Assembly (NCBI GenBank): GCA_043814545.1
Contig: JBDRJY010000018.1
Coordinates: forward strand, 18,046 to 82,045
Source of the DNA: an archaeon
GTDB taxonomy: Archaea > Nanobdellota > Nanobdellia > SCGC-AAA011-G17 > GW2011-AR17
Length of the DNA: 64,000 bases
Direction: 5' to 3'
Shown here piece after piece: positions 3,900 through 63,364 of this stretch (positions are counted from its first letter, which is position 1; each line of letters starts with the position of its first letter). Below the pieces are notes generated by a model. The model made no database searches. It had not been told where the DNA came from and saw only the letters and a program-made list of their open reading frames with translations. A program made the translations under genes and the position numbers.

Positions 3900-4589
3900 T
3901 TATTTTTTCTTAGTAGCTTCAGGTTTTTTTGTTTCAGCTGCTGATGTTGCAGTAGCTTTCTCAGTTTTAGCTGCAACCTGTGCAGCTTTATCATCAGCAG
4001 CTTTTTTAGAAGCTGCGATTTGATCAAGTTCTCCTTGGAACCCTTTACGAATATTATCAAGTTGTTCTTTAAGTTTAGCACGCTTTTCATCGCTAACTTC
4101 AATTTTACCCGAATTGATAACTTTATCAAACTCGCCAGCATCAATCTTAGGATTAATCTTTAAAGCAACCAAACCTTCAACAAGGACACCCATTGCGTTA
4201 GCTGATCCAATAACAGTTTTAACTGCGCTTCGAAGGTTACGGATAAACAATGAAGTTTCCTTCATCTTAGCGATTTTGATAACATCTTCCATCGCCATGT
4301 TAGCAACTTTGTCAATATTAGGTATACCTGATCCTTTTTGCAGATTAAGTTCTTTCTTAATTAACTGCGAAACTGGTGGCGTACCAACTTCAATTTCAAA
4401 CTCTTTCGTTTCAGTATCTACAGTAACTTTGACAGGAACTTTCATTCCTTTAAATATTTCAGTTTTTTTATTGATGGCTGCAACAACTTCACTAATGTTA
4501 ACTTTTAATGGACCTAAGGCTGGTCCTAATGGTGGCGCTGCAGTTGCTTTTCCGCCTTCAACAAGAGATTCAATTTTTTCTTTAGCCAT
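3900..4589 (-). CDS. rpl11: Ribosomal protein L11 (uL11) with a roughly 65-aa Lys/Ala-rich C-terminal extension
   Basis: N-terminal PPLGPALGPLKVNISEVV L11 signature. Residues after about 165 (KEQLDNIRKGFQGELDQIAASKKAADDKAAQVAAKTEKATATSAAETKKPEATKKK) are low-complexity basic tail. Confidence 0.9.
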   Translation of the reverse strand: MAKEKIESLVEGGKATAAPPLGPALGPLKVNISEVVAAINKKTEIFKGMKVPVKVTVDTETKEFEIEVGTPPVSQLIKKELNLQKGSGIPNIDKVANMAMEDVIKIAKMKETSLFIRNLRSAVKTVIGSANAMGVLVEGLVALKINPKIDAGEFDKVINSGKIEVSDEKRAKLKEQLDNIRKGFQGELDQIAASKKAADDKAAQVAAKTEKATATSAAETKKPEATKKK

Positions 4590-7011: not shown

Positions 7012-8216
7012 ATTATTCAAGACAACGTATGTTTGACCAAAGCCAACTTTTGAATGGTCATGTAACAGTTATTGGTCAGACAAAAATCTCGGAATACCTT
7101 TGTGCTTACTTAGCTGCAATGGGTATAGGTAAGATTAGTTTGATTGGAGAGAAAAATGAAGAAACCAAACCGTTGCAAGAAACAATCTTCGAATTGAATC
7201 CAGATGTATCAGTTAAGATTTTACAACTTCCTTTTCATCGAGCTTTTGTTAATACTGATTCGATTTTAGTTGACACAACAAACTCTTTAGAATCAAAGTT
7301 TAAACTTAAGCAATTTGAAAAATATTTGAGTGCATCTTCTTCAACGGACTCTTTTATTATAAGTCCAGACTTCTTTCACCCCTTAGATTCTCCTCAAGGA
7401 GATTATACTAGTGCTATGGCGGCTGCGATTTTAGTTGACGAGATTCGTAAACAGATTTTTGAAGAGGATATAAATTTAAATTTTTTAACTTATTCGTTAG
7501 GCTCAAATCCAAGATTTTTTTCTAAATTAGAATATGATAATAATGTGGTTTTAAATTCAAAACGTGTTTTGGTAGTTGGAGCAGGGGGTATAGGCACTTA
7601 TGCATGTTTAAATTTAATTCCTTTAGGCGCAAAAATAGATTTATTTGACGGCGATAAAATCGAAGATCATAATTTGAACCGTCAGATTTTTTATTATAAT
7701 GCAATAGGAGAAAACAAAGCTCAGGTTTTGGCTAAGCGCCTTAAACATTTGACACGTTGGTCTCAGTTAAAACCGAATAAAAATTATTTAGACAAAAAAA
7801 CTCTTTACAATCTTCCTGACTACGACTGTATTTTAAGTTGCGTTGATAATTGGGAAACAAGAAAAATATTAAGTAAGTACGCTCTAATAACTGAAACATC
7901 ATTGATTAACGCTTCTGTTACAGCTTACACAGCTTCGTTAGAAATATATGTTCCTGGTTTGACTTCTTGTTTAGAATGTAGGCACGATTTTGACAGGTTA
8001 ATGCAGACAGAAACGGCACCAGCTTCTTGTTCAAACATTGCTAATTCTAATATTGTTTCAACGAACGCGTTTATTGGTGCAATGATGGCTGCTGAGTTTA
8101 AAGCATTAAGTTCTCCACAAATATATCCTCAGATTTACAACTACGAATTTCTTTACGATTCACAATCCAACCATAAATTTGCACAGATCCCAATTGAAGC
8201 GAGGTGTGTACATTGA
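7008..8216 (+). CDS. E1-like (ThiF/MoeB/Uba family) enzyme with tandem adenylation-like domains: degenerate N-terminal, canonical C-terminal
   Basis: Domain 2 has VLVVGAGGIGTYACLNLIPLGAKIDLFDGDKIEDHNLNRQIFY, DCILSCVDNWETRKIL and CxxC (SCLECRHDF). Domain 1 starts with the ThiF-like YSRQ...IGKISLIGE but lacks GxGxxG (VIGQTKISE). Confidence 0.75.
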   Translation: MNYSRQRMFDQSQLLNGHVTVIGQTKISEYLCAYLAAMGIGKISLIGEKNEETKPLQETIFELNPDVSVKILQLPFHRAFVNTDSILVDTTNSLESKFKLKQFEKYLSASSSTDSFIISPDFFHPLDSPQGDYTSAMAAAILVDEIRKQIFEEDINLNFLTYSLGSNPRFFSKLEYDNNVVLNSKRVLVVGAGGIGTYACLNLIPLGAKIDLFDGDKIEDHNLNRQIFYYNAIGENKAQVLAKRLKHLTRWSQLKPNKNYLDKKTLYNLPDYDCILSCVDNWETRKILSKYALITETSLINASVTAYTASLEIYVPGLTSCLECRHDFDRLMQTETAPASCSNIANSNIVSTNAFIGAMMAAEFKALSSPQIYPQIYNYEFLYDSQSNHKFAQIPIEARCVH

Positions 8217-8632
8217 GCACCTTAGATTTATTGTTAACAAATGTATATTGTCCGGTTCAATATGATAAATTAGAAGAAATAAGCTTAGACAAACGTTTAT
8301 CTTACAAAAAATCGTTACAAGAATTTAAGCGATACGCAACAACCGAATATTCTAATGATTTAGCAAACATTCTTTTAGGAGAATTTGTTGGCAGAAAATT
8401 GGATTGGAACGATAGGTTAAAATTTTTTTACATGCGATATAATTCTTTAACTTCTTTGACAGAATCTCAAGAAGTTTCGTATTTAATTAATATATTAAAC
8501 AAAAATAAATATGTAAACAAAAAATACAAAAAACAACTCAAACAAGTAAAAAAGAAATTAAAACCAGGATTAATTAAAAGAATTTTGTTTAATCTTCTTC
8601 ATCCTCGCTATGATCATCTTCCCGACGGATAA
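8204..8632 (+). CDS. hypothetical protein (last gene of the E1/E2 cassette)
   Basis: GTG start overlapping the E1 stop. Basic C-terminus. The 3' end overlaps the convergent spt5 by about 44 nt, so its exact extent is uncertain. Confidence 0.35.
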   Translation: MCTLSTLDLLLTNVYCPVQYDKLEEISLDKRLSYKKSLQEFKRYATTEYSNDLANILLGEFVGRKLDWNDRLKFFYMRYNSLTSLTESQEVSYLINILNKNKYVNKKYKKQLKQVKKKLKPGLIKRILFNLLHPRYDHLPDG

Positions 8633-9674: not shown

Positions 9675-10169
9675 ATCAAACTTAACAACATTAGGCTTGT
9701 TTATTTCTAAAACTTTTCCACTTTGGATATTTTGTTTGACAACATGTGGATAAATCCGGCCCCAGTTTTGATATTTCAAAATTAGGTTATGGTGCCTAAC
9801 ATCAATTTCACCGGTTAAGTCGGCAATTGCCCATGGTTTAAGTTTATAATTATCATAATACCGTTTATTTTCGCGTTTAGTTTCTACAATTTCGTCGTCA
9901 ATATAAAACTCTAATCCTAGTTGATATTTGCAAAGATAAAGACTATCCATATACTTGTAAGCTTCAGTCTTTTGAATCATACGGTGAATATACTGATCAG
10001 TTTCTTCGTTATAGCCTTTAAAACCCATGTAAACCTGGAACCATGCAGATAAAACATTAGATGCTTTGATCTCAGGATAATTGGATTTTTCCCAATTTAG
10101 GATTGTCCAGATATAAAAATCTACACCATGTTCTTGATCATACTCAAACTGTTTTTTTGCGGATATCAT
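9657..10169 (-). CDS. hypothetical protein
   Basis: Clean 170-aa aromatic-rich ORF; no recognised motif. Confidence 0.45.
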   Translation of the reverse strand: MISAKKQFEYDQEHGVDFYIWTILNWEKSNYPEIKASNVLSAWFQVYMGFKGYNEETDQYIHRMIQKTEAYKYMDSLYLCKYQLGLEFYIDDEIVETKRENKRYYDNYKLKPWAIADLTGEIDVRHHNLILKYQNWGRIYPHVVKQNIQSGKVLEINKPNVVKFDLESSV

Positions 10170-24952: not shown

Positions 24953-25621
24953 TCACCAATGTTTTATCCTAAGTTTTAACCACCACGGTTTTCTGGAAGC
25001 TTTATATTCAATATTTTCTATAAAATTAAACATGTCTAGCCAATCTTCTTCTAATTGAGATTTACTTTCTGGATTTAAATAATAATCTTGAAAACAATCA
25101 GCAAAAAATTCTCCAGGATATTTATAAAAATGAGGAGTAAATTCTTCTTTATTGGAAGCCATCAAATTTAAAAATATAGGATTGCGGGAAAAATTTCTCC
25201 TAGTAAACAATTTTCCGATACGGGAATCAACAGCATGTCCAACTTCATGTAATATACTTTCAGTACGCGGTTCTTTTATTTCCCATACTTTATTAAAATC
25301 AAGAATCGGCTCCAAACCAATAAGAATTGAACCATAATAATCATTGTAAGCCATATCAATATCGTCCCAATATCTAGGATCTTCAACAGGGTCAACTTGA
25401 AGACCTTTAACACCAAGAAATTCTGGCTGATCAGTTAATAACATTTCACTATAAAATGCAATATAAACATTGTCTTCAATTAAAATATCTAAAATGCATG
25501 AAGGCACTTTATCCAAATGTTTTAAACATTTCTGAACATAAACATTATCATTTTCAATGTTACGATAGAATATAGATGGAAAAAGTTTTTCATTCATAAT
25601 CAATCGTGGTAGATATAACAT
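24953..25621 (-). CDS. Putative Zn-metallopeptidase (HExxH)
   Basis: ILHEVGHAVDS motif; 222 aa. Confidence 0.45.
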   Translation of the reverse strand: MLYLPRLIMNEKLFPSIFYRNIENDNVYVQKCLKHLDKVPSCILDILIEDNVYIAFYSEMLLTDQPEFLGVKGLQVDPVEDPRYWDDIDMAYNDYYGSILIGLEPILDFNKVWEIKEPRTESILHEVGHAVDSRIGKLFTRRNFSRNPIFLNLMASNKEEFTPHFYKYPGEFFADCFQDYYLNPESKSQLEEDWLDMFNFIENIEYKASRKPWWLKLRIKHW

Positions 25622-25706: not shown

Positions 25707-27422
25707 ATGAAAAAGAGGTGTCTATTATTTATCCTAGCTTTGGTTATGTTGTTAGCTTATTCGGTCTCAGCAGTAGATGTTACATTAATTAGCCCTGATG
25801 ATGCTTATGAGTCTAGCACAAATAGCGTAAGTTTTTCTTGTTCAGCTTCAGCAAATGAATCTAGGACGATTGCTTTCCTATATTTTTGGACGGATGCTTA
25901 TGGTACTTGGGAGAAAAAATATACAAGTAATTTTTCACCTGCACTTTTCCCTTTAATTGATTTACCAAATGGCACTTTTTCTTGGTCTTGTCAGGCAGAA
26001 GATAATTCTTCCAATACTGCGTTTGGTGAAATACGAACATTTACTGTCAATACAACAGTAGAAACAGTAACTTTCACTGGTCCAATAGATAACCAAACTT
26101 GGTCAGAAGACAGTACTAAATCAGATGCATTTGATTTGGATACTTATTTTAGTACTGGACCATATCTGGTAACAGGTAATTCTTTAGTTACTATAACAAT
26201 AGATTCAAACAACGTTGTTTCGTTTTCGGGTCCGGCAAACTGGTCGGGCATTGAAAATGTTATTTTCACTTCAGGATCAACTGAAAGTAATTTGGTAACA
26301 TTAACAATTAACGGTGTTAATGATGCAGCATTATATTCAACAATATCTAATATTACAATAAATAAAAACCAAAATTATACATTAAATCTTTCAGAATATT
26401 TTTGGGACATTGAAGGCGACGAATTAAGTTATTCATCTTCATCATCGCCGAACTTAACAATTTATTTGAACTCAACACAAGCAACTATTATTCCTGACGA
26501 AAATTGGGAAGGTTTAGCTTCAATAATTTTCAAAGCACACGACGGTAATATTTCAACTTCAGCTAATAACATTTCAGTGATAGTAGGTTCCGTTTTAACT
26601 AACAATGCGCCAAGCATTGATTCTTATTCACCAATATCATCAAGTATAGAAATAACTGATCAAGAAACGCAAGCGTTTAGTGTAACTGCATTTGATAATG
26701 ATAATGATACTTTAAGTTATAGTTGGTATATTGATAGTGTTAAAGAAAGTAGTGCTTCAAGTTCTTCGTATACTTATACAGATAAAGAAGTAGGCATACA
26801 TACAATTTTGGTAGCAGTTTTTGATAGTACGACTACAACTAACAAAAGTTGGACATTGACAATTAGTGGCGAAGAATCAGCTGTAGGTTTTTTCGACGTT
26901 GAAGAGCAAGACTTAGAATCAATTATTGATATGACAGCATCAGAAGGTTTCTGTGGCGACGGTGTTACAGCTGATGATGAAACTTGTAGCAATTGCCCGA
27001 ACGATGTCAAATGTGTTGAAGGCCAGGTATGTAAAAACAGCGAATGTGTTGACAAGGCTAGCTTTTCAACAGGTTTAATAATTTTTCTAATTGTCTTAGC
27101 GGTGTTAGGTGCTGTAGGTGCAGGTCTATACTTTCTTTCTATGCGTAAATCCATTTACGAAAATCGGCAAAAAGATAAAATTATACAACAAGAAGAAATA
27201 AAATCTTTGTCTGAGTTAGGTGAACGTCCGCCGTCTGAAATAAATGACTTTTATAAACCATCTTCTCAACCTAAGGTAGTTCCAACAAAGTTAAACCCTT
27301 TGCAAAAATTTATAAAGAACCAGAAGTCACGACACATTACAACTGCTCAAATTAAGAAAAAATTGGCTGCAAAAGGATGGACTGATGAGCAAATTAGTGA
27401 AGCTTTTGAAATTTTAAAATGA
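25707..27422 (+). CDS. Secreted, C-terminally membrane-anchored surface protein with Ig/cadherin-like repeats and a Cys-rich module
   Basis: Signal peptide, repeated NGVNDA/VND-type beta modules, CGDGVTADDETCSNCPNDVKCVEGQVCKNSEC, a TM helix at about 455-477, then a cytoplasmic tail. Confidence 0.6.
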   Translation: MKKRCLLFILALVMLLAYSVSAVDVTLISPDDAYESSTNSVSFSCSASANESRTIAFLYFWTDAYGTWEKKYTSNFSPALFPLIDLPNGTFSWSCQAEDNSSNTAFGEIRTFTVNTTVETVTFTGPIDNQTWSEDSTKSDAFDLDTYFSTGPYLVTGNSLVTITIDSNNVVSFSGPANWSGIENVIFTSGSTESNLVTLTINGVNDAALYSTISNITINKNQNYTLNLSEYFWDIEGDELSYSSSSSPNLTIYLNSTQATIIPDENWEGLASIIFKAHDGNISTSANNISVIVGSVLTNNAPSIDSYSPISSSIEITDQETQAFSVTAFDNDNDTLSYSWYIDSVKESSASSSSYTYTDKEVGIHTILVAVFDSTTTTNKSWTLTISGEESAVGFFDVEEQDLESIIDMTASEGFCGDGVTADDETCSNCPNDVKCVEGQVCKNSECVDKASFSTGLIIFLIVLAVLGAVGAGLYFLSMRKSIYENRQKDKIIQQEEIKSLSELGERPPSEINDFYKPSSQPKVVPTKLNPLQKFIKNQKSRHITTAQIKKKLAAKGWTDEQISEAFEILK

Positions 27423-30715: not shown

Positions 30716-31417
30716 ATGGAATGGTATGAAGAATTGGATTACGATGAAAATCCTCTTAAGATTGAGACAAAAATTGTTGGAAACGAAGGTGTTATTGACG
30801 AAATTTTTTATTCAATCCTTTCAGGAAACATGTTGTTCCTTGAAGGCGCTGAAGGTATGGGCAAGACAAAGATTCTTGGTGAAATAATCAAAAAGTTTGG
30901 CGGCCGGCGTAAAATAATTTACGTTAACTGTCGAACATTGCAAGCAGGGTTAAATATTGAAAAACTTCTTGTTAACTGTAACGGTCTTTTAGGAAAAATT
31001 TTAAAAAGAAAACCTAAAAATATGATACTTTTGCTTGATGAGATTGAATTTTTATCTAAGACTAACCGTGAACGGATTAAATATTATTTTGATCAAAATT
31101 ATTTACGATCAGTAATCTTTTCAAGTCGCCAGTTTGAAAATGTTGAGCTAGGTGAAAGTATTAAGGAACGGCTTAGTAAAGTGGTCAAGGTTGAATCTCT
31201 TTCAGATTATGAAGCAGTTCAACTAATTCATAATAAGATTGGCACAAACTTGTTATCAGAACGTTTGATTAAAGAAGTATATAAACTTTCAAATAAGAAC
31301 CCACAAATGTTCTTGGACAATTGTAACAAAGTTTGTTCGCAAGCAATAAAAAACCCGGAATTGAAAGAAGATGATGTACAATCAATTGTTTCAAGCCAGG
31401 AGGTAGTAGCACAATGA
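30716..31417 (+). CDS. ExeA/GspA-like AAA+ (AAA_22) ATPase, paralog 1
   Basis: N-terminal NP motif, Walker A GAEGMGKTK, Walker B LLLDEIE. Confidence 0.5.
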   Translation: MEWYEELDYDENPLKIETKIVGNEGVIDEIFYSILSGNMLFLEGAEGMGKTKILGEIIKKFGGRRKIIYVNCRTLQAGLNIEKLLVNCNGLLGKILKRKPKNMILLLDEIEFLSKTNRERIKYYFDQNYLRSVIFSSRQFENVELGESIKERLSKVVKVESLSDYEAVQLIHNKIGTNLLSERLIKEVYKLSNKNPQMFLDNCNKVCSQAIKNPELKEDDVQSIVSSQEVVAQ

Positions 31418-32487
31418 ATAATTTATGGTATAAACAACTAGGATTTAATAATAACCCGTTTAGTATTAAACCAGCTATTTTTAGCGATGAATTGCTTGGC
31501 CTTGACAAGCTTATGGACGAAATTGCTTATCATATTTTAACAAATAAATTAATTTTTATTGAGGGTAATTTTGGAGAAGGTAAAACTACTATGTTGAAAC
31601 GTTTGATAAAAGACTTCGGCGGTAAAAAACAAGTTATCTATTTCAGTTGCAACCGTCTTGATAGTAGGTTAGACGTTGACAGGTTGTTAACTGGACGTTA
31701 TGGTTTTTTGGGAAAGTTGTTTAACAAAAAAGGTAAGGACATGATTCTTTTACTTGACGAAGCTCAAGGTCTTACAAAGAAAGACGCTGAAAACTTGTAT
31801 TCACACTTTTTAGGCGGTTACTTTAAGTCTATAATCTTTGTTGGTGTAGAATATAATAAAGAAAACTTTACTGACAAGGTTAACAAAGAGATGAAACTTT
31901 TCACGTTACCTCAGCTAAATAAAGAAGATGCAGTACAAATTATTAAAAAACGTGCTGGCGACTTTGAAATGTTAACTGGTGACGTTGTTGAATTAATCTT
32001 TGAAAGATCAGGTAAAAATGTACGTCGTATGTTAAAAAACTGTGAAATGCTTTGTAGGAGAGCATATTCATTTGGTGAAACTGGGGTTACGGCAAAACTT
32101 ATTGAAGAAATGTTGCCTGATGTTAAGAAAAAAGTTAAGAAAGTATTAAAGGTAAGTAAAAAGAAAATTTCAGATGCAAGTCAAAAGTCGGAAAAACCAG
32201 ATGTTTTAATTGAAGAGATAAAAGTTAAAAAAACTAAAAAGTTTGTTCCTAAAAAGAAAAAAGAAGTTGAAGAAATCTTAGAGGAAGCAGGTATTCCTGC
32301 AAATTCTAAAAAGAAAGAGATTAAAATCGAAATTATTGAAGAAGAAGATGATGACGATGATTTAGAAGATGATCAAGAAATTTTCAACAAAAAGCAGGCA
32401 AATCTGGAAAAGATAGCTCCACATGCAATGGAAGAAGCCTTGAATCGTCCAACTGAAGAACTTTTATCTGATGAACAGTACTATTAA
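31414..32487 (+). CDS. ExeA/GspA-like AAA+ (AAA_22) ATPase, paralog 2, with K/E/D-rich C-terminal tail
   Basis: LGFNNNPFSIKP N-terminus (ExeA-like NPF), Walker A GNFGEGKTT, Walker B LLLDEAQ; ATGA overlap with paralog 1. Confidence 0.55.
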   Translation: MNNLWYKQLGFNNNPFSIKPAIFSDELLGLDKLMDEIAYHILTNKLIFIEGNFGEGKTTMLKRLIKDFGGKKQVIYFSCNRLDSRLDVDRLLTGRYGFLGKLFNKKGKDMILLLDEAQGLTKKDAENLYSHFLGGYFKSIIFVGVEYNKENFTDKVNKEMKLFTLPQLNKEDAVQIIKKRAGDFEMLTGDVVELIFERSGKNVRRMLKNCEMLCRRAYSFGETGVTAKLIEEMLPDVKKKVKKVLKVSKKKISDASQKSEKPDVLIEEIKVKKTKKFVPKKKKEVEEILEEAGIPANSKKKEIKIEIIEEEDDDDDLEDDQEIFNKKQANLEKIAPHAMEEALNRPTEELLSDEQYY

Positions 32488-39078: not shown

Positions 39079-40359
39079 TTAAGCTTGCTCAAAGTCGAAC
39101 TCTTCTTCGTTGTCTCTGCCAACATATGCTTTGATAACCAAGCCAAGGATTACTAAAACAATCAGTGCAGCTAAAATACCGCTAGCGACTGCGTAACCAT
39201 TAACTGTGTTTTCTTCAGCAACGTTAACATTGAACGACTGTTCTTCAACGATTGTGTCGCCACTTTTTACAACAACTGAAAATTGGTGTGAACCAGCTTC
39301 TTCAGGTGTAATGGTGTAAACAACTTCGCCAGTTGAACCAGGAGCTACAGTAAATAATGACTGACTAACTGATGTTTCAGCCCAGAACTCAGCACCGTTA
39401 ACTTCAACAGTGTAAGCTTTTGAACTGTCACCAAAGTTACCAACCAATACTTTAAAGTTAGATTCTTGACCAACCTTAAGTTCGTCAACACTAGCTTGTA
39501 TTGCAGCAACTGAACTGTCGTCACCATCTTGTACAGTGGTACCGTCATTGCTAACATAGATTGTTTCAGTTTGTGTTACAACTGAGTGACCTCTGTTGTA
39601 AGTAACTTCAACTAAAACTTCGTATGAACCTTCAGGAGCATCTTCAGGAATAGTCAAGTAGATACTGTCTGAACTCAATGAAGTTTCTTCATCTTCATTA
39701 GCTTCTTCGGTATTTGTCAATTCATCAATGTAAGTGCTAGCTGATACGCCAAGGCTTTCAATTTTAACTGTAACCTTGATGTCTTCTTCTTTGTTTTCCC
39801 CAGTGTTTTCAACTCTAACTTTAGTTGTTAGGGTTTGACCTGCTTCAACAGTTTCTGAAGGGCTCATTACAACATCTTGAATTGTCAAATCATGTCGAGC
39901 AGCTTCAACGAACAAAGTAAAACTTTTTTCGTAGCTAAAATCATCATTATAAGCTTCTACGTGTAACGTATACTCGTCATCAGCATCCATGTCAGCTGGA
40001 ACATCTAATGTCAAATACTTGATGTATCTTACACCCTGTTCAACGTCAAACATTTCAGTAACATCTTCGATGTCATCATACTCGTAACCGCCTATCCAAG
40101 CTTTAACTTTTATGTCTTCATCTAGGGTAGTGAAACTGGTTAATTTAAGGGCAAGAGAAACAGTTTCTCCACGCTCAACTTGAACAACGTCACCTGTTTC
40201 AGTGTGAACACCGTTCACATAAAAATCAAATTCAGTAAAATCCAAGTTACCAGCAGCAACTACACCGGTCATTGTTATTAAGAATAACATAACTAGACCT
40301 AAGATTGCTTTGATTGCTTTCATTTTTGTTCTCATTTGGTTAAACCTAATGTTTGGCAC
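39079..40359 (-). CDS. Secreted surface protein with CARDB-like repeats and C-terminal TM anchor
   Basis: Signal peptide, two DLTIQDVVMSP / VKVENTGE-type modules, C-terminal hydrophobic helix plus short charged tail. Confidence 0.6.
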   Translation of the reverse strand: MPNIRFNQMRTKMKAIKAILGLVMLFLITMTGVVAAGNLDFTEFDFYVNGVHTETGDVVQVERGETVSLALKLTSFTTLDEDIKVKAWIGGYEYDDIEDVTEMFDVEQGVRYIKYLTLDVPADMDADDEYTLHVEAYNDDFSYEKSFTLFVEAARHDLTIQDVVMSPSETVEAGQTLTTKVRVENTGENKEEDIKVTVKIESLGVSASTYIDELTNTEEANEDEETSLSSDSIYLTIPEDAPEGSYEVLVEVTYNRGHSVVTQTETIYVSNDGTTVQDGDDSSVAAIQASVDELKVGQESNFKVLVGNFGDSSKAYTVEVNGAEFWAETSVSQSLFTVAPGSTGEVVYTITPEEAGSHQFSVVVKSGDTIVEEQSFNVNVAEENTVNGYAVASGILAALIVLVILGLVIKAYVGRDNEEEFDFEQA

Positions 40360-41988: not shown

Positions 41989-42561
41989 ATGATAATAACA
42001 ATTAGCGGCCCTCATGGTTCCGGAAAAACAACTGTTGGCAAAATCATTGCTGAAAAATTAAATTATGAATTCTTTTCTACTGGTGATGCAAGGGGGGAGA
42101 TAGCTCTTAAACATAACATGACTATGAATGAACTTAACAAAATAGGGGAGACTGAAGCTTGGCCTCATAAAGAAGTTGACGATTATATTATGGAGTTAGG
42201 TTCAAGAGCAGATGATATTGTTATTGATTCTTGGCTAGCTTTCCATTTCATTCCAAAATCTTTCAAAATCTTTTTCAAGGTAGATCCAAAAATTGCTGCT
42301 GAACGAATTTTCAAGCAAAAACAATCTGATTCTAATGTCAGAGAAGATGAAGAAAAAACAAAAGATGTTGAAGATACTTTAAGGGATATTGAAGAAAAAA
42401 CAGCTAGCTGGAAAGTTGGGATAAAGAAATTATACGACATTGACCCTTTTGATGAACAACATTATGATATTATTATAGACACTTCAAATTTAACAATAGA
42501 GCAAGTAGCAGATGATTTACTGGCTAAAATTAAATCTTGGATAAATACGGAAACTATATAA
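41989..42561 (+). CDS. cmk: Cytidylate kinase, archaeal type
   Basis: MIITISGPHGSGKTT P-loop; about 190 aa, typical of archaeal CMP kinases; alternative upstream start at 41968. Confidence 0.65.
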   Translation: MIITISGPHGSGKTTVGKIIAEKLNYEFFSTGDARGEIALKHNMTMNELNKIGETEAWPHKEVDDYIMELGSRADDIVIDSWLAFHFIPKSFKIFFKVDPKIAAERIFKQKQSDSNVREDEEKTKDVEDTLRDIEEKTASWKVGIKKLYDIDPFDEQHYDIIIDTSNLTIEQVADDLLAKIKSWINTETI

Positions 42562-44858
42562 ATTCTGTATTTTTACAAAAATTTATGGGGTTTAGAGATA
42601 GATTAGAAGAGATGTTAACAAATGTTTCATCTATTGAAGCTATACAATTTGTTGTTGATGGATATTCTCAAAAACGTTCTGATTTTTCTGTATGGGCTGC
42701 TGAAGAGTTGGTAGGTAGGGGCATGTCAGATTTTCGTTTATACAAGATCTTGGCTAAAAATCATTTTCAGCAAGGAGAGTTTAATAGAGGGTTTGAAAAC
42801 CTTGAACTCGCTATAGATAATAACCCTGAAGATGCTGAATCTTATTTTTTAAGAGGTTTAGGAAAAGCACAAGTTTATCGGCACCAAACCAAATCAAAAA
42901 ATTCAGAAGAAATTTTATCTGATATAAAAGATAATTTTGTCCTGGCTGTTAAACATGATTTATCCTTTTACAGAAATGTTTTAGATTACTTAAACTGTCA
43001 GACTGATTTAGATACGCCTGGCGCAGACATTCCTTCCACTACTGAAGTAGGCCTCGTTGCAACAAAAACTTTTAAGGAAGTAGGAGGAAAATTTGATTCA
43101 GATTTATTGTTAAGCACTTTTGGTGCACTTGATATTGATTTTATTGACGACTTTAAATTTTTGCAATGGTTTTATGAACAAGCAAAAGTTCTTGAAGAAC
43201 CAGATTTTATCACTGATGAGCTTAAAGCAAAACTAGTTTTGCACAATTACAACGACATTGAATATTTGATTAACACTTTTAGTGGTGAATTATTTAAAAA
43301 TTGTTGGTTCCCTGACGAGAAAAAACAAAAGTTAATGCTTAACAAAATTTGGAATCATAATAATAAGGCTGTGCAAACAAATCCTGTTTTTAACTATAGG
43401 TTAGCAGAGTTTATCTGGATAGATGGTAATTTGTTAAATACTAATGCAAACTTTGCTTCAATTTGTATACGTAACGCAATTGAAAACGAGTATTATAATA
43501 AAGAAGCAGCTGAGGCAATGTTACACAGAATTTATTGTCACAGGATAATTGCTGCTGAAGACGAACGTGTTTCTCAGATTGCTCGTCGTGAATATAGAGA
43601 GTTTTGTGCTAAGAATGGTATTGTAGCTTTAGACAAGATTGAAGAACATTTAGACCCTGATGATTTGGAAGAAGATACTATTAACGAAATGTTACCTGCT
43701 TTGTTAGGTCCAACTCCAGATTCTGTTACAGACTTTTCGTTAAGAAACATGATTCTTAACATTAAACACGAACTTGATACTCGTATTATTGGCCAAGAAG
43801 AACCTAGTCGCGCTTTATCTGAGGCAATAGGTAATCATGTTTATCGTGTGCGTGAAATTTTGTTAGGACATCAACCGCAGACAGACCATAGTAATTTGTT
43901 GTTAATTGGTTCGACAGCTACAGGAAAAACTTTGTCAGCGAAAGTAGCCTTAGAATTTGCATTGAAAGAATTTAAACTACCTGCTATAAACTTTGACGCT
44001 TCAACTATAACTGAACATGGTTATGTTGGCGCTGATGCTGAAGATTGTTTACAATTATTATATCTTGAATCGGGTAAAAATCTGAAAGCAACTGAATGTG
44101 GCATTATATTTTTGGATGAGTTTGATAAGAAAAATTCTCAAGGTAATACTGGTTCTAGGGATGTCAGTGGTAGTGGCGCAATGCATTCACTTTTAAAAAT
44201 TTTGGAAGGTCATAAAACTCTTGTTACAATAGGTCAGCATCCAGATAAAGAAGACGTAATTATTGACACTTCAAACATTTTATTCATTGCAATGGGTGCA
44301 TTCCAAGGTTCAACTAACCAATATTCTTTAGATTCAGCAATAAAACAAATTAGAAAACAAAAATTAGGTATAGGTATTAAGTCAGAAAAAATTGACCCTT
44401 TATTATTATCAGATAGAATTCTTTTGCCTGAAGCTTTACATATGTTCGGCATAATCCCACAGGTATCAGGCAGATTACCATATAAAATCCGGTTTAATGA
44501 ACTTACTGAACAAAATTTATATGAAATTTTACAAAATGATTTGCGTATTAATAATCTTGAACGTATTCCTGTCTTTAGAAATAGATATAGGAAAATTTTT
44601 GACCGTGACTTAGTTGTACAAAAAGATGCAATGCAGGAAATAGCTAAATATGCTTACGAGTTAAAGCTAGGTGCGCGTGGTTTAAACGAGATTTGTGATC
44701 TTGTGATTGGCAATTTAATTAGACAAGAACTTTTTGAAAAAGAAATTAATGATGCTTCAAAACGTGTTATAACTCCACAATATGTTCGTAAAACTTTAGA
44801 AAACAAGCGTCAAGAGCAAAATGAAGATAAGAAAAGAGGTTTAGGTTTTAGTTCTTAG
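42537..44858 (+). CDS. ClpX/HslU-family AAA+ unfoldase fused to a roughly 430-aa TPR-like N-terminal domain
   Basis: LLLIGSTATGKT (Walker A), EHGYVGADAEDCL (the ClpX GYVG pore-loop motif), IIFLDEFDK (Walker B), RDVSGSGAMHSLLKILEG, NILFIAMGAF, GARGLNE (sensor 2). The N-terminal domain is helical, repeat-like (NPEDAESYFLRGLGKA), with no Zn-binding ClpX N-domain. Confidence 0.75.
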   Translation: MDKYGNYINSVFLQKFMGFRDRLEEMLTNVSSIEAIQFVVDGYSQKRSDFSVWAAEELVGRGMSDFRLYKILAKNHFQQGEFNRGFENLELAIDNNPEDAESYFLRGLGKAQVYRHQTKSKNSEEILSDIKDNFVLAVKHDLSFYRNVLDYLNCQTDLDTPGADIPSTTEVGLVATKTFKEVGGKFDSDLLLSTFGALDIDFIDDFKFLQWFYEQAKVLEEPDFITDELKAKLVLHNYNDIEYLINTFSGELFKNCWFPDEKKQKLMLNKIWNHNNKAVQTNPVFNYRLAEFIWIDGNLLNTNANFASICIRNAIENEYYNKEAAEAMLHRIYCHRIIAAEDERVSQIARREYREFCAKNGIVALDKIEEHLDPDDLEEDTINEMLPALLGPTPDSVTDFSLRNMILNIKHELDTRIIGQEEPSRALSEAIGNHVYRVREILLGHQPQTDHSNLLLIGSTATGKTLSAKVALEFALKEFKLPAINFDASTITEHGYVGADAEDCLQLLYLESGKNLKATECGIIFLDEFDKKNSQGNTGSRDVSGSGAMHSLLKILEGHKTLVTIGQHPDKEDVIIDTSNILFIAMGAFQGSTNQYSLDSAIKQIRKQKLGIGIKSEKIDPLLLSDRILLPEALHMFGIIPQVSGRLPYKIRFNELTEQNLYEILQNDLRINNLERIPVFRNRYRKIFDRDLVVQKDAMQEIAKYAYELKLGARGLNEICDLVIGNLIRQELFEKEINDASKRVITPQYVRKTLENKRQEQNEDKKRGLGFSS

Positions 44859-57491: not shown

Positions 57492-58059
57492 TACCTTTAA
57501 TTCGTAGTTTTTTGGTATTTTTAAGTGTTTTTATTAGATATAGGACTAAAGCAATAATGGGCAGTAACCCGAATAAGTAATACCATTTAGCATTATCCCT
57601 TACTTTTACGCCGGTGGCTTGACCAGTGATTGGGCTCACACTAACAGTTTCAATGTTAGTGAAAGAAGGTTTTATTTCTGTACCACCTTTAATGTTAATT
57701 GAATCTGGTATAGCAATAGTGTTTACTATGTTTAGTGCTTGTTGTGTTTCACTTAATTCTGTAATATAAATTAAATTAGAATAATTTCCGTCTGTTAAGT
57801 AAGGTTCTGATTTTATTGTTATTAATTTTTTATCTGTTATGTTTAAACTAAAATCATTTTCACTGAACGTGATAAAATCTGAATCACTTGTTAATTTAAT
57901 ATTAACATTTTCGTTAAGATTATTGAAAACCATTAATTCTCTTTCTACGAAATCTCCTCTTTGTACAGTTCCAAAATCTAAATTGGTAGGCGTTATCGCT
58001 AACGCGTTAACTGTAGGTAACAAAATTAAAAAAATTAAAAAAAAATGTTTCATTTTCAA
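57484..58059 (-). CDS. Secreted protein with C-terminal TM anchor
   Basis: Signal peptide; C-terminal YLFGLLPIIALVLYLIKTLKNTKKLRIK. Confidence 0.5.
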   Translation of the reverse strand: MKMKHFFLIFLILLPTVNALAITPTNLDFGTVQRGDFVERELMVFNNLNENVNIKLTSDSDFITFSENDFSLNITDKKLITIKSEPYLTDGNYSNLIYITELSETQQALNIVNTIAIPDSINIKGGTEIKPSFTNIETVSVSPITGQATGVKVRDNAKWYYLFGLLPIIALVLYLIKTLKNTKKLRIKGNG

Positions 58060-59318
58060 CTTACCACTGACGTAATTTGCAACGCTCCAACATAATTGTC
58101 AGACTTGGTTTGTGCCGGCACATTTATCCTTAACATGAGTTCGCTTTGCGCTTGTGGTAAAAGGTTTAAGTCCAGTTCAGTACCTGTTTTACTTAATGTA
58201 AACCATTCGTTGTTAAAATAATATTCAACATTTTCCACGTTAAGTGTACCGCTCTGTCCAACTAAATCCGTACCTTGAACATTTATGTCCACGCCAGTGT
58301 TACCAGTGTTACTTATTGTTAAGATTTGTTCAGTTGAAATTTCTCCAGGGTTTAAAGTTGAAAAATCTAGCTCGCTTGTGTCTAAAACAGTTGAAATGAT
58401 TGCCAAATATTTAAAGCTTGTAGAGTTTTGTGTTTGCAATTTTCCGTCGGAAACAGTAGCTGTTATTTGGTAATCTCCTGCTAAATCAGAATATTGCATG
58501 TTAAACGAACCGTTAAATAAACTTTGCGTTGCACTAGAGTTAGAATTAAAGTTTAATTCCACAATTTGGTTGTTTACTTCAATTTGCACTTCAGTCACAT
58601 CATCAAAACCGTTAAGGTCTTCAATCATTATTTCGACTTCAACAGTTTTAGGCGAGTTGATGTTAGGCATGATTTGTACACCTTCTTCTTGAGAATTGTC
58701 CGGGCTTAAAACAATTTCAATTATTTCTGGAGCTGAATTATTTATCGTTATAATTAATATTACATCTTCTTCAGATGCTTCTTGGATATTACCAGAGCCA
58801 GGGTTAGATTCTTGTTCAGCCCAATTGTCGATAGTATTAGGTAAAGAATAATTTATTCTCGCTAAAGAATTACCGTTACCATTAGCACCATAAGATGTGT
58901 TATAAGTAAAAGTTTCTGTATAATTTCCGTTACTTAACACAATTGTATCTTCTGTAGCTAACGTAAAATAACCGTCGACAGCTGTATAAGTTCCGTCTGT
59001 ATTATCCCAAACACCATCACCGTTTCCCCAGGCAGTTTCAAAACTTTCTAAATCTTCATCGTCAGTGTCAATCAACTCACGCGCAATAACAATATATTCT
59101 CCAGGACTAATCGTTACGTCTTCAAAATTGTATCCATCCAAAGTCCAAACAGTTAAGTCCACACCACTTTCACCATTGTTATAAATTTCCACCCATTCAC
59201 CATCAGTCTCAGATTCAGTTTGCGTCGGCGCGTACATAACTTCAGTTACTATTACTTCTGCAGCAACATAATGTACGCATAACATTAAAGCTAACATTAA
59301 CAACATAATTTTTTTCAT
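58056..59318 (-). CDS. Secreted beta-rich surface protein
   Basis: Start at the internal ATG at 59318 (MKKIMLLMLALMLCVHYVAAEV signal peptide) preceded by SD AAGGAGGT; the ORF-track N-terminal extension is unlikely. Confidence 0.55.
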   Translation of the reverse strand: MKKIMLLMLALMLCVHYVAAEVIVTEVMYAPTQTESETDGEWVEIYNNGESGVDLTVWTLDGYNFEDVTISPGEYIVIARELIDTDDEDLESFETAWGNGDGVWDNTDGTYTAVDGYFTLATEDTIVLSNGNYTETFTYNTSYGANGNGNSLARINYSLPNTIDNWAEQESNPGSGNIQEASEEDVILIITINNSAPEIIEIVLSPDNSQEEGVQIMPNINSPKTVEVEIMIEDLNGFDDVTEVQIEVNNQIVELNFNSNSSATQSLFNGSFNMQYSDLAGDYQITATVSDGKLQTQNSTSFKYLAIISTVLDTSELDFSTLNPGEISTEQILTISNTGNTGVDINVQGTDLVGQSGTLNVENVEYYFNNEWFTLSKTGTELDLNLLPQAQSELMLRINVPAQTKSDNYVGALQITSVVS

Positions 59319-59486
59319 ATTATTAACCTCCTTTTTGTTAAAATAAATTTTAGGATTAAAGTTTAAAACTGATTCTGAGAAAAAACATGTAATCTTAGAT
59401 CTAATACCGTGAATATTAGTTGTTTTACCATAAACCTGCAAAATAGTAAATTATAAAAACCCCACGAAACTTAAAAAATCCATATA

Positions 59487-61432: not shown

Positions 61433-63364
61433 TTATTTCTTAAACAGCATTCTCAGGAAATACAAAGCAACTAATACTAAGATTATATCGCCTAAAATCC
61501 ATAACAACTGTTTATTTTCTTGGAACCAACCTTCACCTGAAACTTCTGCAGATTCAGCAATGTTTACAGTAACAAGTTCTGTATTTTCTGAACCGTCAGC
61601 GCTAGTCGCAGTAACAGACATTGAATGCCTACCCGTTACACCATCCATTAATTCAAGGTATATGTAAGCATGGTACGAATCGCCTGCTCCAAGTGTATTA
61701 ATTTGTTCAATACCTAGAACATTAGCCCACATTGAAACGTCACCAACGCTTAGCAATACAGTATCTTTACCATTTCCATCGTTTGTAACGGTGATAGGTA
61801 TGGTAACCGTGGTAGAACCTACAGCAACGTTGTACTCGTCTGAGCTAGTTTTAAGTGTAACCATACTGGTTATTGCGTTGTTAGAATTTGCTACGTTAGC
61901 AACATTTGAACAACTGTCAACATCTAGTTCAAACAATTCTGAAACATACTCGTCACCGTCATCGTAGTATACGATAACTTCAACGTATAGGTTACCAGCA
62001 GTTAAATCGTCGGTAAGCTCTATTTCAAATGTTTTTTTGTAATCATTGTCACTGTCTGAATAGTCGCCAAGGTCAAACTTAGCAGAATCTATATCAATTC
62101 CAAGCTGTGAACTTTTTACACGAATGTAAACATCGTCTTCGTTTTTCTCGCCAACGTTTTCAACTTCAACAGTCACTTCAAGAATGTCGCCGCAAACAAG
62201 TCCTTCTTCCTGACTAAAATCAACACCAGTGATAGCTACAGAATGACTTTCCCTTTTTAGGTCAAGTTCAACTGTTTCATAATCGCAGTTTTGATCTTCG
62301 TCACCGTCTTCGTAAGCTCTAACATACAATACAATGTTATCGCCTTCATCGAATTCAGCATTAAAAGGAATTTCTAAATCAAGGTTAAAATTTTCTTTAT
62401 CGTTATCTTTGATTTCTGTGTCTGCACTTTCAACACTAGCTAATTCTTCATCAGTGTCTAAGTTGTACAAAATAGCTTCAACAATAACATCTTGGTCGTC
62501 GTCAGCATCGTTTTGAACTTTTACATTGATTTCGATGGTTTCACCAGGTTTGTAATCGTCACCGTTGTCAGGATCTTCGATTGAAACTTCCAAGTCACCA
62601 ACTAGACCATCATTACACATTACAGGTTCAACTTGTAAGCTGAATGAAATGGACTGTGAATCTAGAGTGCTGGTTGTAACAACAAAGTTACCTGTGTACA
62701 AGTCAACATCCATTTTATCTGCAATGGTTAAGTCAACTGTAACAGTTTCTGAATCACCAGGTGCTAGTTCTAAAGCATTAACATCTGTAAACTCAAAGGT
62801 TAAAAGTTCGCCATCATTATCTTCGTCATTACCATCATATACAATTGTCCATGTGTCTAGAACTGTAGAACCAGTGTTCTCAATTATAAACTCTAAGTCA
62901 GCATATGAATCATCTGCCTGTTCAATATTCCATTCAGTTTCAGATAAGCTGAAAGATTCAACTTCGTTAACTGTAACAGTATAATCTACTTCAACAGGTG
63001 TTGTACCGTCTGCAGCGTCAGAAACGCTTAGCGTACCAACATAGTTGCCAGCTAATAAATCAGAAGCAGGTATGGTAACATCAAAAGTTTGTGTCTGAGA
63101 TGTTCCAACTAAAAGGTCAGTAAGATCTTCAATTGTTGGATCATCGATTGTGTAATCACCGTTTACTAAATCAGTGCTTACAAAGTTAACTGTTGCAATG
63201 GTGTCAAGACCAGTGTTATTCACTGTAACCGACACAGTTACTGTATCTCCTGGGTTGCCTGCGACAGTATCAATAGAATCAACTATCAAGTCAGCATCCG
63301 CAGCTGCTATTAAAGAAACAGCTAGAATTACAATAACCAACAAGCTTGTCAGTAATTTTTTCAT
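61433..63364 (-). CDS. Large secreted surface (S-layer-like) protein with CARDB-like repeats and C-terminal TM plus basic tail
   Basis: Signal peptide, Asp/Thr/Val-rich beta repeats, C-terminal LLWILGDIILVLVALYFLRMLFKK. Confidence 0.6.
   Translation of the reverse strand: MKKLLTSLLVIVILAVSLIAAADADLIVDSIDTVAGNPGDTVTVSVTVNNTGLDTIATVNFVSTDLVNGDYTIDDPTIEDLTDLLVGTSQTQTFDVTIPASDLLAGNYVGTLSVSDAADGTTPVEVDYTVTVNEVESFSLSETEWNIEQADDSYADLEFIIENTGSTVLDTWTIVYDGNDEDNDGELLTFEFTDVNALELAPGDSETVTVDLTIADKMDVDLYTGNFVVTTSTLDSQSISFSLQVEPVMCNDGLVGDLEVSIEDPDNGDDYKPGETIEINVKVQNDADDDQDVIVEAILYNLDTDEELASVESADTEIKDNDKENFNLDLEIPFNAEFDEGDNIVLYVRAYEDGDEDQNCDYETVELDLKRESHSVAITGVDFSQEEGLVCGDILEVTVEVENVGEKNEDDVYIRVKSSQLGIDIDSAKFDLGDYSDSDNDYKKTFEIELTDDLTAGNLYVEVIVYYDDGDEYVSELFELDVDSCSNVANVANSNNAITSMVTLKTSSDEYNVAVGSTTVTIPITVTNDGNGKDTVLLSVGDVSMWANVLGIEQINTLGAGDSYHAYIYLELMDGVTGRHSMSVTATSADGSENTELVTVNIAESAEVSGEGWFQENKQLLWILGDIILVLVALYFLRMLFKK

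What the first reader, a model, noticed from the sequence alone, without database searches (positions are those of the whole stretch)
42537..44858. ClpX/HslU-type unfoldase with a novel roughly 430-aa TPR-like N-terminal domain and no ClpP/HslV nearby
The C-terminal 340 aa carry every ClpX hallmark: Walker A, the GYVG pore loop (EHGYVGADAE), Walker B IFLDEFDK, the RDVSGxG...LLKILEG box and sensor-2 GARGL. ClpX/HslU are rare in archaea and normally pair with a peptidase. Here the ATPase is fused to a large helical N-domain. The ClpX zinc-ribbon N-domain and the HslU I-domain are both absent, and no ClpP-like gene is in the window. This may be a stand-alone remodeller, or a defence or PQC module acquired from bacteria.
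Basis: partly seen in the sequence, partly recalled or inferred. Interest (0 to 1): 0.55.

Follow-up and report, generated by a model that had tools for sequence, protein, structure and literature searches.

The report
Archaeal ClpX-like unfoldase with TPR domain
This gene encodes an intact ClpX-type protein-unfolding motor whose usual zinc-finger head is replaced by a TPR-like helical domain; it belongs to a small, apparently undescribed family in tiny (DPANN) archaea, which as a group are thought to lack ClpX's usual protease partner ClpP.

Summary
The ORF is real. Its start is most likely ATG 42585 (757 aa), not TTG 42537. The C-terminal ~365 aa are a ClpX-type AAA+ module with intact Walker A/B, GYVG pore loop, pore-2 RDVSG, Arg finger and sensor-2. 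There is no zinc ribbon, RKH loop or HslU I-domain. The N-terminal ~345 aa model confidently (pLDDT 88) as a TPR-like alpha-solenoid, followed by a ~40-aa disordered linker.

First, the N-domain is not unique. It is homologous (hhalign 95%, E 4e-8) to the N-domains of at least 11 other 50%-identity clusters of 645-696-aa archaeal proteins (e.g. Nanoarchaeota UBA9640), sometimes in tandem pairs. Second, the ClpP-docking loop is not absent. It is canonical [ILV]GF in 11/11 of those relatives and IGI / TGF / FGF in the query and its two orthologs.

No ClpP, HslV or 20S gene lies in the fully annotated window or in eight related loci. The gene is syntenic in three genomes, has its own conserved TATA box, and is the fastest-evolving gene of its block (35% identity versus 60-81% for neighbours; dN/dS 0.30 versus 0.06-0.18), though its ATPase core stays constrained.

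Verdict: a new architectural variant of a known kind. Its docking partner is unknown.

The parts
42554..42562 (+). Conserved TATATAAAT box (candidate archaeal TATA box), overlapping the stop codon of the upstream cytidylate-kinase gene and about 23-31 nt upstream of the ATG
   Evidence: The same motif lies at the same distance from the ATG in the window, L001 and L003. Its promoter function is inferred, not shown.
42585..44858 (+). Most likely coding sequence (757 aa + stop) of the TPR-ClpX-like ATPase. The mechanical ORF starts at TTG 42537.
   Evidence: (P0001 is identical from this ATG).
42585..43619 (+). N-terminal TPR-like alpha-solenoid domain (residues 1 to about 345; about 20 helices plus one small beta-hairpin)
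   Evidence: AlphaFold model from the family alignment: pLDDT 87.7, pTM 0.72. All top Foldseek hits are TPR superhelices, but with TM only about 0.3. The profile hits consensus TPR proteins in the PDB through one motif at about residues 50-95. 5 of 14 family N-domains hit Pfam TPR models. hhalign to the wider family's N-domains: 94.9%, E 4.3e-8.
43629..43736 (+). Acidic, predicted-disordered linker (residues about 349-384)
   Evidence: pLDDT <50 in the full-length model. Highest pN/pS outside the N-terminus, 0.61-0.86. Poorly aligned across the family.
43758..44783 (+). ClpX-type AAA+ module (large and small subdomains; residues about 392-733)
   Evidence: NCBIfam ClpX 1.4e-59, Pfam AAA_2/AAA/ClpB_D2-small, PDB ClpX 1e-42. 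Foldseek TM 0.74-0.81 on ClpX chains.
43908..43931 (+). Walker A, GSTATGKT (residues 442-449)
   Evidence: Aligned with ClpX GPTGSGKT. G442, T444, G447, K448 and T449 are invariant in the family.
44019..44030 (+). Pore-1 loop GYVG (residues 479-482)
   Evidence: Aligned with E. coli ClpX G152-Y153-V154-G155.
44112..44129 (+). Walker B, LDEFDK (residues 510-515)
   Evidence: D511, E512, D514 and K515 are invariant in the family.
44157..44171 (+). Pore-2 loop motif RDVSG (residues 525-529)
   Evidence: Aligned with E. coli ClpX TRDVSG.
44349..44393 (+). IGF-loop equivalent, KQKLGIGIKSEKIDP, with tripeptide I-G-I at residues 594-596
   Evidence: Aligned column for column with E. coli I268-G269-F270. 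The orthologs carry TGF and FGF, and 11/11 wider-family members carry [ILV]GF. The region 594-608 is disordered in the model.
44469..44477 (+). Arginine-finger motif G-R-L (R630)
   Evidence: R630 is invariant in the family and aligned with E. coli R307.
44670..44684 (+). Sensor-2 motif GARGL (R698)
   Evidence: G696, A697 and R698 are invariant and aligned with E. coli R370.
44784..44855 (+). C-terminal tail: a charged, variable stretch followed by RGLGFSS
   Evidence: RG[LI]GFSS is conserved between the window and L001 but absent in P0004. Its function is unknown.

Best explanation
The gene encodes an active, hexamer-forming ClpX-family AAA+ protein unfoldase/translocase. The zinc-binding N-domain of bacterial ClpX is replaced by a ~345-aa TPR-like alpha-solenoid held on a ~40-aa flexible acidic linker.

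Proposed mechanism. The six TPR solenoids sit above the ring and capture substrates or adaptor proteins, as TPR domains typically do by binding short linear peptides. The GYVG pore-1 and RDVSG pore-2 loops grip the polypeptide, and ATP hydrolysis (Walker A/B, R630 finger, R698 sensor-2) pulls it through the pore.

The protein is the fast-evolving branch of a DPANN-archaeal family whose other members keep a canonical [ILV]GF docking loop. I therefore infer that the family hands substrates to a ring-shaped partner with hydrophobic docking clefts, either a ClpP-like peptidase or something else encoded elsewhere. I lean, only about 55:45, to this protein still docking through its I-G-I loop rather than working alone.

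Shown: domain composition, motif integrity, family membership, synteny, purifying selection on the ATPase core, and the absence of a partner gene nearby.
Inferred: hexamer formation, the TPR domain acting as a receptor, and the existence and nature of a partner.
For: - ClpX-type module with every catalytic and pore motif intact. The predicted fold superposes on ClpX from ClpXP complexes at TM 0.74-0.81.
- The ATPase core is under strong purifying selection (pN/pS 0.10-0.18). Whole-gene dN/dS is 0.30.
- N-domain: a confident all-alpha solenoid model whose top structural hits are all TPR proteins, and a profile that hits consensus TPR proteins. The linker is disordered.
- The N-domain is homologous to that of the wider family. 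That family is found in archaeal contigs (Nanoarchaeota UBA9640; archaeal neighbours such as PolB, Cdc48 and RNase HII).
- Docking tripeptide: canonical [ILV]GF in 11/11 family members despite only 23-27% overall identity to the query, and IGI/TGF/FGF in the query subclade, in a loop that is otherwise variable and disordered. IGF loops are the ClpP-binding element of ClpX/ClpA (PMC9035409).
- The gene is positionally conserved with its own conserved TATA-like box in three genomes, so it is a maintained cellular gene.
Against: - No ClpP, HslV, 20S or other self-compartmentalising peptidase gene lies in the 64-kb window or in any of eight related loci. From my own knowledge, canonical ClpP is generally regarded as absent from archaea.
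- The tripeptide differs in each of the three orthologs (IGI, TGF, FGF), whereas it is nearly invariant in true ClpX. That fits relaxed constraint after loss of a partner.
- The protein evolves 2-3 times faster than all its neighbours, which could mean relaxed or shifted function.
- Only one unambiguous TPR motif is detectable by sequence, and structural matches to TPR proteins are weak (TM about 0.3). 'TPR-like receptor' is therefore a class-level inference.
- Nothing was tested biochemically.
Confidence: 0.6

Rival explanations
1. Stand-alone unfoldase/remodeller or disaggregase. The same ClpX-type motor with a TPR receptor works without any peptidase. The xG-hydrophobic loop would be a relic or would be used for something else. 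The analogy, from my own knowledge, is to peptidase-free ClpX homologues (yeast Mcx1) or to Skd3/CLPB, which is a repeat domain fused to an HCLR-clade AAA+ module.
For: - No peptidase gene in the window or in eight related loci.
- The docking tripeptide is non-canonical and differs in each ortholog (IGI/TGF/FGF).
- Accelerated evolution of the whole protein relative to syntenic neighbours fits a change of constraints after losing a partner.
Against: - All three orthologs keep Gly plus a hydrophobic residue at the tip of a flexible loop.
- The wider family keeps a perfect [ILV]GF in 11/11 members, which is hard to explain without a docking partner.
- Only about 185 kb in total was inspected, so a partner elsewhere in the genomes is not excluded.
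Confidence: 0.33
2. A conflict-driven protein, involved in antiviral defence or host-symbiont interaction. Its TPR domain would track rapidly changing foreign or host targets, which would explain the fast evolution.
For: - It is the fastest-evolving gene of its block (35% identity against 60-81% for neighbours; dN/dS 0.30 against 0.06-0.18).
- pN/pS is about 1 at the extreme N-terminus.
- The hosts are DPANN archaea, which from my own knowledge are typically episymbionts.
Against: - No window reaches pN/pS clearly above 1 apart from residues 1-40.
- The N-domain as a whole sits at 0.2-0.4.
- The neighbours are housekeeping genes in conserved synteny, not a defence island.
- PADLOC gives only a generic AAA hit (17.7 bits).
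Confidence: 0.05
3. A decaying gene under relaxed selection that is on its way to becoming a pseudogene.
For: - Elevated dN/dS and low identity between orthologs.
- The L001 copy carries a 1-bp deletion that splits the ORF.
Against: - The frame is intact over 757 codons in the window and 748 in L003.
- Every catalytic motif is preserved.
- The ATPase core has pN/pS 0.10-0.18.
- The L001 deletion lies in a short A-run (AAA read as AA), and the downstream frame remains open and conserved (dN/dS 0.25), so it looks like a sequencing or assembly error.
Confidence: 0.02

Closest known systems
Bacterial ClpX (the ATPase of the ClpXP protease)
   Same: - Single HCLR-clade AAA+ module about 33% identical to E. 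coli ClpX in the structural alignments.
- Same order of Walker A, GYVG pore-1, Walker B, RDVSG pore-2, IGF-type loop, Arg finger and sensor-2.
- The predicted fold superposes at TM 0.74-0.81.
   Different: - No C4 zinc-binding N-domain; a ~345-aa TPR-like solenoid plus linker takes its place.
- The RKH loop is deleted.
- The docking tripeptide is IGI rather than [ILMV]GF.
- It scores 202 bits against the 359-bit equivalog cutoff.
- The host is an archaeon and there is no adjacent clpP.
Unnamed DPANN-archaeal 'TPR-ClpX-like' family (e.g. HII14750.1 / HII14749.1 of Nanoarchaeota archaeon UBA9640, annotated only as 'AAA domain-containing protein')
   Same: - Same architecture: a helical TPR-like N-domain sharing the motif (C)KLxYDDxx[FY]LxxxFGxxLF, a variable linker, and a ClpX-like AAA+ module without RKH loop or zinc ribbon.
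- N-domains are homologous by hhalign (94.9%, E 4.3e-8).
   Different: - The query subclade has about 60 extra residues in the N-domain, a 4-residue insert in the small subdomain and a ~20-aa C-terminal tail.
- Its docking tripeptide is non-canonical.
- It sits on the longest branch of the NJ tree.
- It is single-copy, whereas some relatives occur as tandem pairs.
HslU
   Same: HCLR-clade AAA+ unfoldase. The N-terminal part of the module aligns.
   Different: Much weaker match: 99 bits in NCBIfam and E 1e-13 to 6e-19 in the PDB. There is no I-domain insertion, and an IGF-type loop is present, which HslU lacks.
Skd3/human CLPB and yeast Mcx1 (compared from my own knowledge, not tested here)
   Same: HCLR-clade AAA+ unfoldases that work without a peptidase. 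Skd3 also carries an N-terminal helical repeat (ankyrin) domain.
   Different: Different AAA+ subfamily (ClpB NBD2) and repeat type in Skd3; both are eukaryotic organellar proteins. The resemblance is functional analogy only.

Membership tests
ClpX (NCBIfam equivalog PRK05342 / TIGR00382) | Whole-protein score at or above the curated equivalog cutoff | tested here: not met
   202.1 bits against a cutoff of 359, and 182.8 against 370.75.
ClpX | N-terminal C4 zinc-binding domain (zf-C4_ClpX, PF06689) | tested here: not met
   No PF06689 hit and no Cys cluster in the N-terminus. Bacterial hits in the same searches do carry PF06689.
ClpX | Intact AAA+ ATPase motifs (Walker A, Walker B, Arg finger, sensor-2) | tested here: met
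   GSTATGKT, LDEFDK, GRL (R630) and GARGL (R698) align with E. coli K125, E185, R307 and R370.
ClpX | GYVG pore-1 loop and RDVSG pore-2 loop | tested here: met
   Both motifs are present and aligned with the E. coli ClpX motifs.
ClpX | RKH loop | tested here: not met
   The loop is shortened to IG--QHP. It is also absent from all archaeal family members.
ClpX | IGF/[LIVM]GF ClpP-docking loop | tested here: inconclusive
   A homologous, disordered loop is present but its tripeptide is I-G-I (orthologs TGF and FGF). The wider family has [ILV]GF in 11/11.
ClpX | Functional partnership with ClpP (a clpP gene in the genome, a physical complex) | not testable with these tools
   No ClpP in the window or in eight related loci. 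The whole genomes could not be read.
HslU | I-domain insertion and an HslV partner | tested here: not met
   No insertion at the I-domain position. The HslU model scores 99 bits against a 362-bit cutoff, in three fragments. tblastn finds no HslV.
DPANN TPR-ClpX-like family (unnamed) | Homologous helical N-domain with the KLxYDDxxFLxxxFG core motif | tested here: met
   hhalign 94.9%, E 4.3e-8 over 267 columns. The query motif is LVLHNYNDIEYLINTFSGELF, and F232 is invariant.
DPANN TPR-ClpX-like family (unnamed) | ClpX-like AAA+ module lacking the zinc ribbon and the RKH loop, in an archaeal genome | tested here: met
   Archaeal markers in the window: RNase P p30, ribosomal P1/L10/L1/L15e/L11, aIF5A, Spt5 and Cdc6.
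TPR repeat proteins | Recognisable 34-residue TPR motifs by sequence | tested here: inconclusive
   The query alone gives E 0.08-0.09 for TPR_14 and TPR_11. The family profile hits consensus TPR proteins through one motif (about residues 50-95). 5 of 14 family N-domains hit Pfam TPR models, best at 1.3e-6.
TPR repeat proteins | Right-handed helix-turn-helix solenoid fold | tested here: met
   The model (pLDDT 87.7) has about 20 antiparallel helices. The top 50 Foldseek hits are almost all TPR or related helical-repeat proteins, though with TM only about 0.3.
Known anti-phage defence systems (PADLOC) | Significant match to a defence-system protein model, and a defence-island context | tested here: not met
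   Only DolB at E 4e-4, 17.7 bits, over the generic P-loop region. The neighbours are housekeeping genes.

The most novel reading that the evidence does not exclude
DPANN archaea possess a previously unrecognised ATP-dependent proteolytic or protein-remodelling system. A ClpX-derived motor with a TPR receptor domain would use its conserved [ILV]GF loops to dock onto a non-canonical partner. Candidates are the archaeal 20S proteasome alpha-ring or a ClpP-fold SDH-type peptidase such as the one 5 kb from the UBA9640 gene pair. That would be a ClpX-type/proteasome or ClpX-type/novel-peptidase hybrid unknown in any organism. The window protein would be a rapidly diverging offshoot of it.
Probability: 0.15. 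Interest if true: 0.8.

Novelty: new variant of a known kind. Interest (0 to 1): 0.5.

Why it matters
ClpX is one of the best-understood protein-unfolding machines, and ClpXP is treated as a bacterial and organellar system. Archaea are thought to rely on PAN or Cdc48 with the 20S proteasome, and on Lon.

A maintained archaeal family that keeps the ClpP-docking loop but swaps the substrate-recognition head for a TPR solenoid raises a concrete, testable question: what do these loops dock onto in organisms thought to lack ClpP?

The answer would either extend the known distribution of ClpP-type proteolysis into DPANN archaea or reveal a new motor-partner pairing. The TPR head would also be a natural example of re-targeting a ClpX motor by swapping its N-domain. 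The strikingly fast evolution of this one housekeeping-embedded gene may point to changing substrates in these episymbiotic archaea.

Tried and rejected
- The word-indexed homolog search with the full protein and with the N-domain alone found only the protein itself, one 74%-identical fragment and one bacterial ClpX. This first made the N-domain look like an orphan. The exhaustive phmmer search overturned that.
- The search for related loci with the 11-sequence N-domain alignment failed because no stretch was conserved enough. With four closer sequences it recovered only UBA9640.
- The metagenome scan with the subclade N-domain recovered only the same organism again (L009, 100% identity). The subclade therefore remains three lineages.
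- The exact-sequence look-up of P0001 found no record.
- Literature searches for ClpX or ClpP with DPANN, Woesearchaeota or Nanoarchaeota found no description of such proteins.
- Rejected readings: HslU-type (weak match, no I-domain); defence system (no PADLOC support, housekeeping synteny); recent HGT island (normal G+C, conserved synteny); pseudogene (intact motifs, constrained core).
- The C-terminal RG[LI]GFSS was considered as a relocated docking motif, but P0004 lacks it, so it is left unexplained.
- The NJ tree has no support values and is affected by long branches. I draw no conclusion from it about a bacterial origin.
Full report
**1. The observation**

The window contains an uninterrupted ORF at 42537..44858 (+), 773 aa from a TTG.

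NCBI annotates the identical protein from the ATG at 42585: P0001, 757 aa, 'MAG: AAA family ATPase [archaeon]', on an 87.5-kb contig. Both orthologs found later also start at the equivalent ATG. In all three genomes a conserved TATATAAAT box lies about 25 nt upstream of that ATG, overlaps the stop codon of the upstream cytidylate-kinase gene, and falls inside the putative TTG extension. I therefore take 42585 as the start and use 757-aa numbering below.

**2. The AAA+ module is ClpX-type and intact**

- Pfam finds AAA_2, AAA and ClpB_D2-small.
- NCBIfam's best model is the ClpX equivalog (1.4e-59, 202 bits), well below its 359-bit cutoff. HslU reaches only 99 bits, in fragments.
- Against PDB sequences the best hits are ClpX chains (1e-42), and HslU is far weaker.
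- The family-alignment AlphaFold model superposes on ClpX subunits from ClpXP cryo-EM structures with target-normalised TM 0.74-0.81.
- In an alignment keyed to E. coli numbering the following are all conserved: Walker A (GSTATGKT), pore-1 GYVG, Walker B LDEFDK, pore-2 RDVSG, the Arg finger (R630) and sensor-2 (GARGL, R698).
- Three ClpX features are missing or altered. There is no zinc-binding N-domain (no PF06689, no Cys cluster). The RKH loop is deleted. The docking tripeptide is altered (section 3).

These elements are the ones that define ClpX function in the review PMC9035409.

**3.

The stretch KQKLGIGIKSEKIDP aligns with the E. coli IGF loop (GIGFGATVKAKSDK). In the 45-sequence alignment, I-G-I falls in the same columns as I268-G269-F270. 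The region (residues 594-608) is predicted disordered, as IGF loops are.

The two orthologs carry T-G-F and F-G-F. The eleven more distant archaeal relatives all carry canonical [ILV]-G-F.

**4. The N-domain**

On its own it looked like an orphan. The word-indexed search found only one relative, P0002. The exhaustive phmmer search changed that. It revealed a full-length homolog, P0004 (748 aa, 37% identity across residues 39-766). It also revealed a set of 645-696-aa proteins whose alignments run into the N-domain: P0006, P0008 and P0133, plus P0009, P0010, P0016, P0031, P0093, P0118, P0141 and P0143.

These share the core motif (C)KLxYDDxx[FY]LxxxFGxxLF, which in the query reads LVLHNYNDIEYLINTFSGELF. 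A profile-profile comparison of the query-subclade N-domains against the eleven others gives 94.9% probability and E 4.3e-8 over 267 columns.

Modelled with this alignment, residues 1-349 give a confident structure (pLDDT 87.7, pTM 0.72) of about 20 antiparallel helices. All the top Foldseek hits are TPR superhelices (consensus TPR, OGT, IFIT5, PEX5, SPY), but at TM only about 0.3. The family profile hits consensus TPR proteins through one clear motif at about residues 50-95. Five of 14 N-domains hit Pfam TPR models.

'TPR-like alpha-solenoid' is therefore supported at class level, with no specific structural relative. Residues 349-384 form an acidic, disordered linker.

**5. Who has it**

P0016 and P0143 are HII14749.1 and HII14750.1, adjacent genes of Nanoarchaeota archaeon UBA9640. 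Other members sit on contigs with archaeal neighbours such as family-B DNA polymerase, Cdc48, RNase HII, SMC and RuBisCO form III.

The window itself is archaeal. It encodes RNase P p30; ribosomal proteins P1, L10, L1, L11 and L15e; aIF5A; Spt5; Cdc6/Orc1; diphthamide synthase; FtsZ and SepF.

Full-text literature searches found no description of ClpX-like proteins in these archaea.

**6. Genomic context and inheritance**

The gene sits in the same place in three genomes: after cmk, and before a convergent Fer4/FAD-oxidase/CCG cluster. The genomes are the window, L001 (JGI 3300033064) and L003 (GCA_054040335.1, a 599-kb contig). In L003 synteny extends over more than 20 genes. G+C is unremarkable. 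This is a vertically inherited cellular gene, not an island.

The L001 copy is split by a 1-bp deletion in a short A-run, but the frame is otherwise intact.

**7. No peptidase partner nearby**

tblastn with E. coli ClpP and HslV, T. acidophilum 20S alpha/beta and the UBA9640 SDH-type protease found nothing in the window or in loci L001-L008.

Pfam on 61 window ORFs found only three peptidases, none of them self-compartmentalising: a secreted-type S8, a membrane M50 and an ATLF-like metalloprotease. A transglutaminase-like protein was also found.

Precomputed Pfam for the neighbours in L003-L008 shows no PF00574. The only ClpP-fold gene seen is a PF01972 SDH-type protease 5 kb from the UBA9640 pair. 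It is separated from the pair by four unrelated genes.

**8. Evolutionary rate**

| Comparison | ATPase | Syntenic neighbours |
|---|---|---|
| Identity, window vs L003 | 35% (N-domain 31%, AAA+ 41%) | 60-81% for 16 neighbours; P1 98% over a partial match |
| Identity, window vs L001 | 74-78% | 81-93% (8 neighbours) |
| dN/dS, window vs L001 | 0.30 (N-domain 0.33, AAA+ 0.25) | 0.06-0.18 |

A sliding window shows a tightly constrained ATPase core (pN/pS 0.10-0.18). The fast regions are the first 40 residues (about 1.1), the linker (0.6-0.9) and the small subdomain and tail (about 0.5).

The enzyme is thus maintained, but its periphery changes quickly. The cause is unknown.

**9. Interpretation**

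What is shown:
- an intact ClpX-family motor fused to a TPR-like solenoid through a flexible linker;
- membership of an archaeal family;
- positional conservation in three genomes;
- a constrained catalytic core.

What is inferred:
- it forms a hexamer, as ClpX does;
- the solenoid recruits substrates or adaptors;
- polypeptides are translocated by the GYVG and RDVSG loops.

The open question is the exit side. Strict [ILV]GF conservation in eleven divergent relatives argues for a docking partner in the family. In the query subclade the tripeptide drifts (IGI, TGF, FGF), though it keeps the Gly and a hydrophobic third residue, and no partner gene is nearby. I lean slightly towards a retained partner encoded elsewhere (about 55:45) over a stand-alone remodeller.

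Defence and pseudogene readings have little support (sections 6-8).

**10. Comparison and novelty**

It works like ClpX, but it fails several membership criteria: the equivalog score, the zinc ribbon and the RKH loop. The canonical IGF test is inconclusive and ClpP partnership is untestable here. It does meet the criteria of the unnamed DPANN family.

I rate it a new variant of a known kind. It is a moderately interesting finding whose main value is the testable question of what a ClpX-type docking loop binds in archaea.

Noticed in passing
L002 9953-11989 and 12035-14092; L008 753-2843 and 2867-5035: Family members occur as tandem paralog pairs, each combining one canonical and one degenerate copy. 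In UBA9640, P0143 has IGF and GYVG while P0016 has pore-1 'GIWG' and 'VARF' before the Arg finger. In L008, P0133 has VGF while the 722-aa neighbour has 'ISF' at the docking tripeptide. This may indicate hetero-hexamers.
   Followed up: partly
L002 3991-5010 (-), 14125-14991 (+), 15005-17311 (-): A ClpP-fold SDH-type serine protease (PF01972) lies about 5 kb upstream of the UBA9640 ClpX-like pair. Met-aminopeptidase (M24) and Cdc48 follow immediately downstream. This could be a loose proteostasis neighbourhood or chance.
   Followed up: partly
L004 6722-7276; L006 6667-7740; L007 5827-6900: A small stand-alone TPR protein is encoded directly downstream of the ATPase in the P0009 and P0010 contexts (DAGK - PUA-methyltransferase - ATPase - TPR - ParA). 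It is a candidate adaptor.
   Followed up: no
Proteins P0005, P0047, P0061, P0074 (no locus fetched): The exhaustive search also returned multi-module ClpX-like proteins. P0005 (1238 aa) has three ClpX-like AAA+ modules in tandem. The 776-987-aa proteins have a transmembrane-looking N-terminus and two ClpX-like modules. Their origin and function are unknown.
   Followed up: no
window 42554-42562; L001 about 2522-2530; L003 about 9965-9973: A conserved TATATAAAT box overlaps the cmk stop codon about 25 nt upstream of the ATPase ATG. This suggests a dedicated promoter and a leaderless or short-leader mRNA.
   Followed up: partly
L001 about 3935-3940: A 1-bp deletion in a short A-run (AAA read as AA) splits the L001 ortholog into 468-aa and 263-aa calls. 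The downstream frame is conserved, so this is probably a sequencing or assembly error.
   Followed up: yes
window 44835-44855: The C-terminal RG[LI]GFSS, following a variable charged stretch, is conserved between the window and L001 but absent in P0004. It is an LGF-like motif at the extreme C-terminus with no known meaning.
   Followed up: partly
window 30716-31417 and 31414-32487: Two adjacent AAA_14 / NB-ARC-like (STAND-type) ATPases are conserved in the same position in L003.
   Followed up: no
window 24953-25621 (-): A 222-aa protein has an anthrax-lethal-factor-like (ATLF, PF07737) metalloprotease domain (E 1.5e-18), which is unusual in an archaeon.
   Followed up: no
window 6187-8632: A ThiF/E1-like protein (7008-8216) is flanked by two unannotated ORFs. 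This may be a ubiquitin-like (SAMP-type) activation module.
   Followed up: no
window 61433-63364 (-), 58056-59441 (-), 39079-40359 (-), 25707-27422 (+): Several putative surface proteins are present, with A2M bait-region, lamin-tail, CARDB and Big_9/cadherin-like domains. This is typical of DPANN cell-surface repertoires.
   Followed up: no
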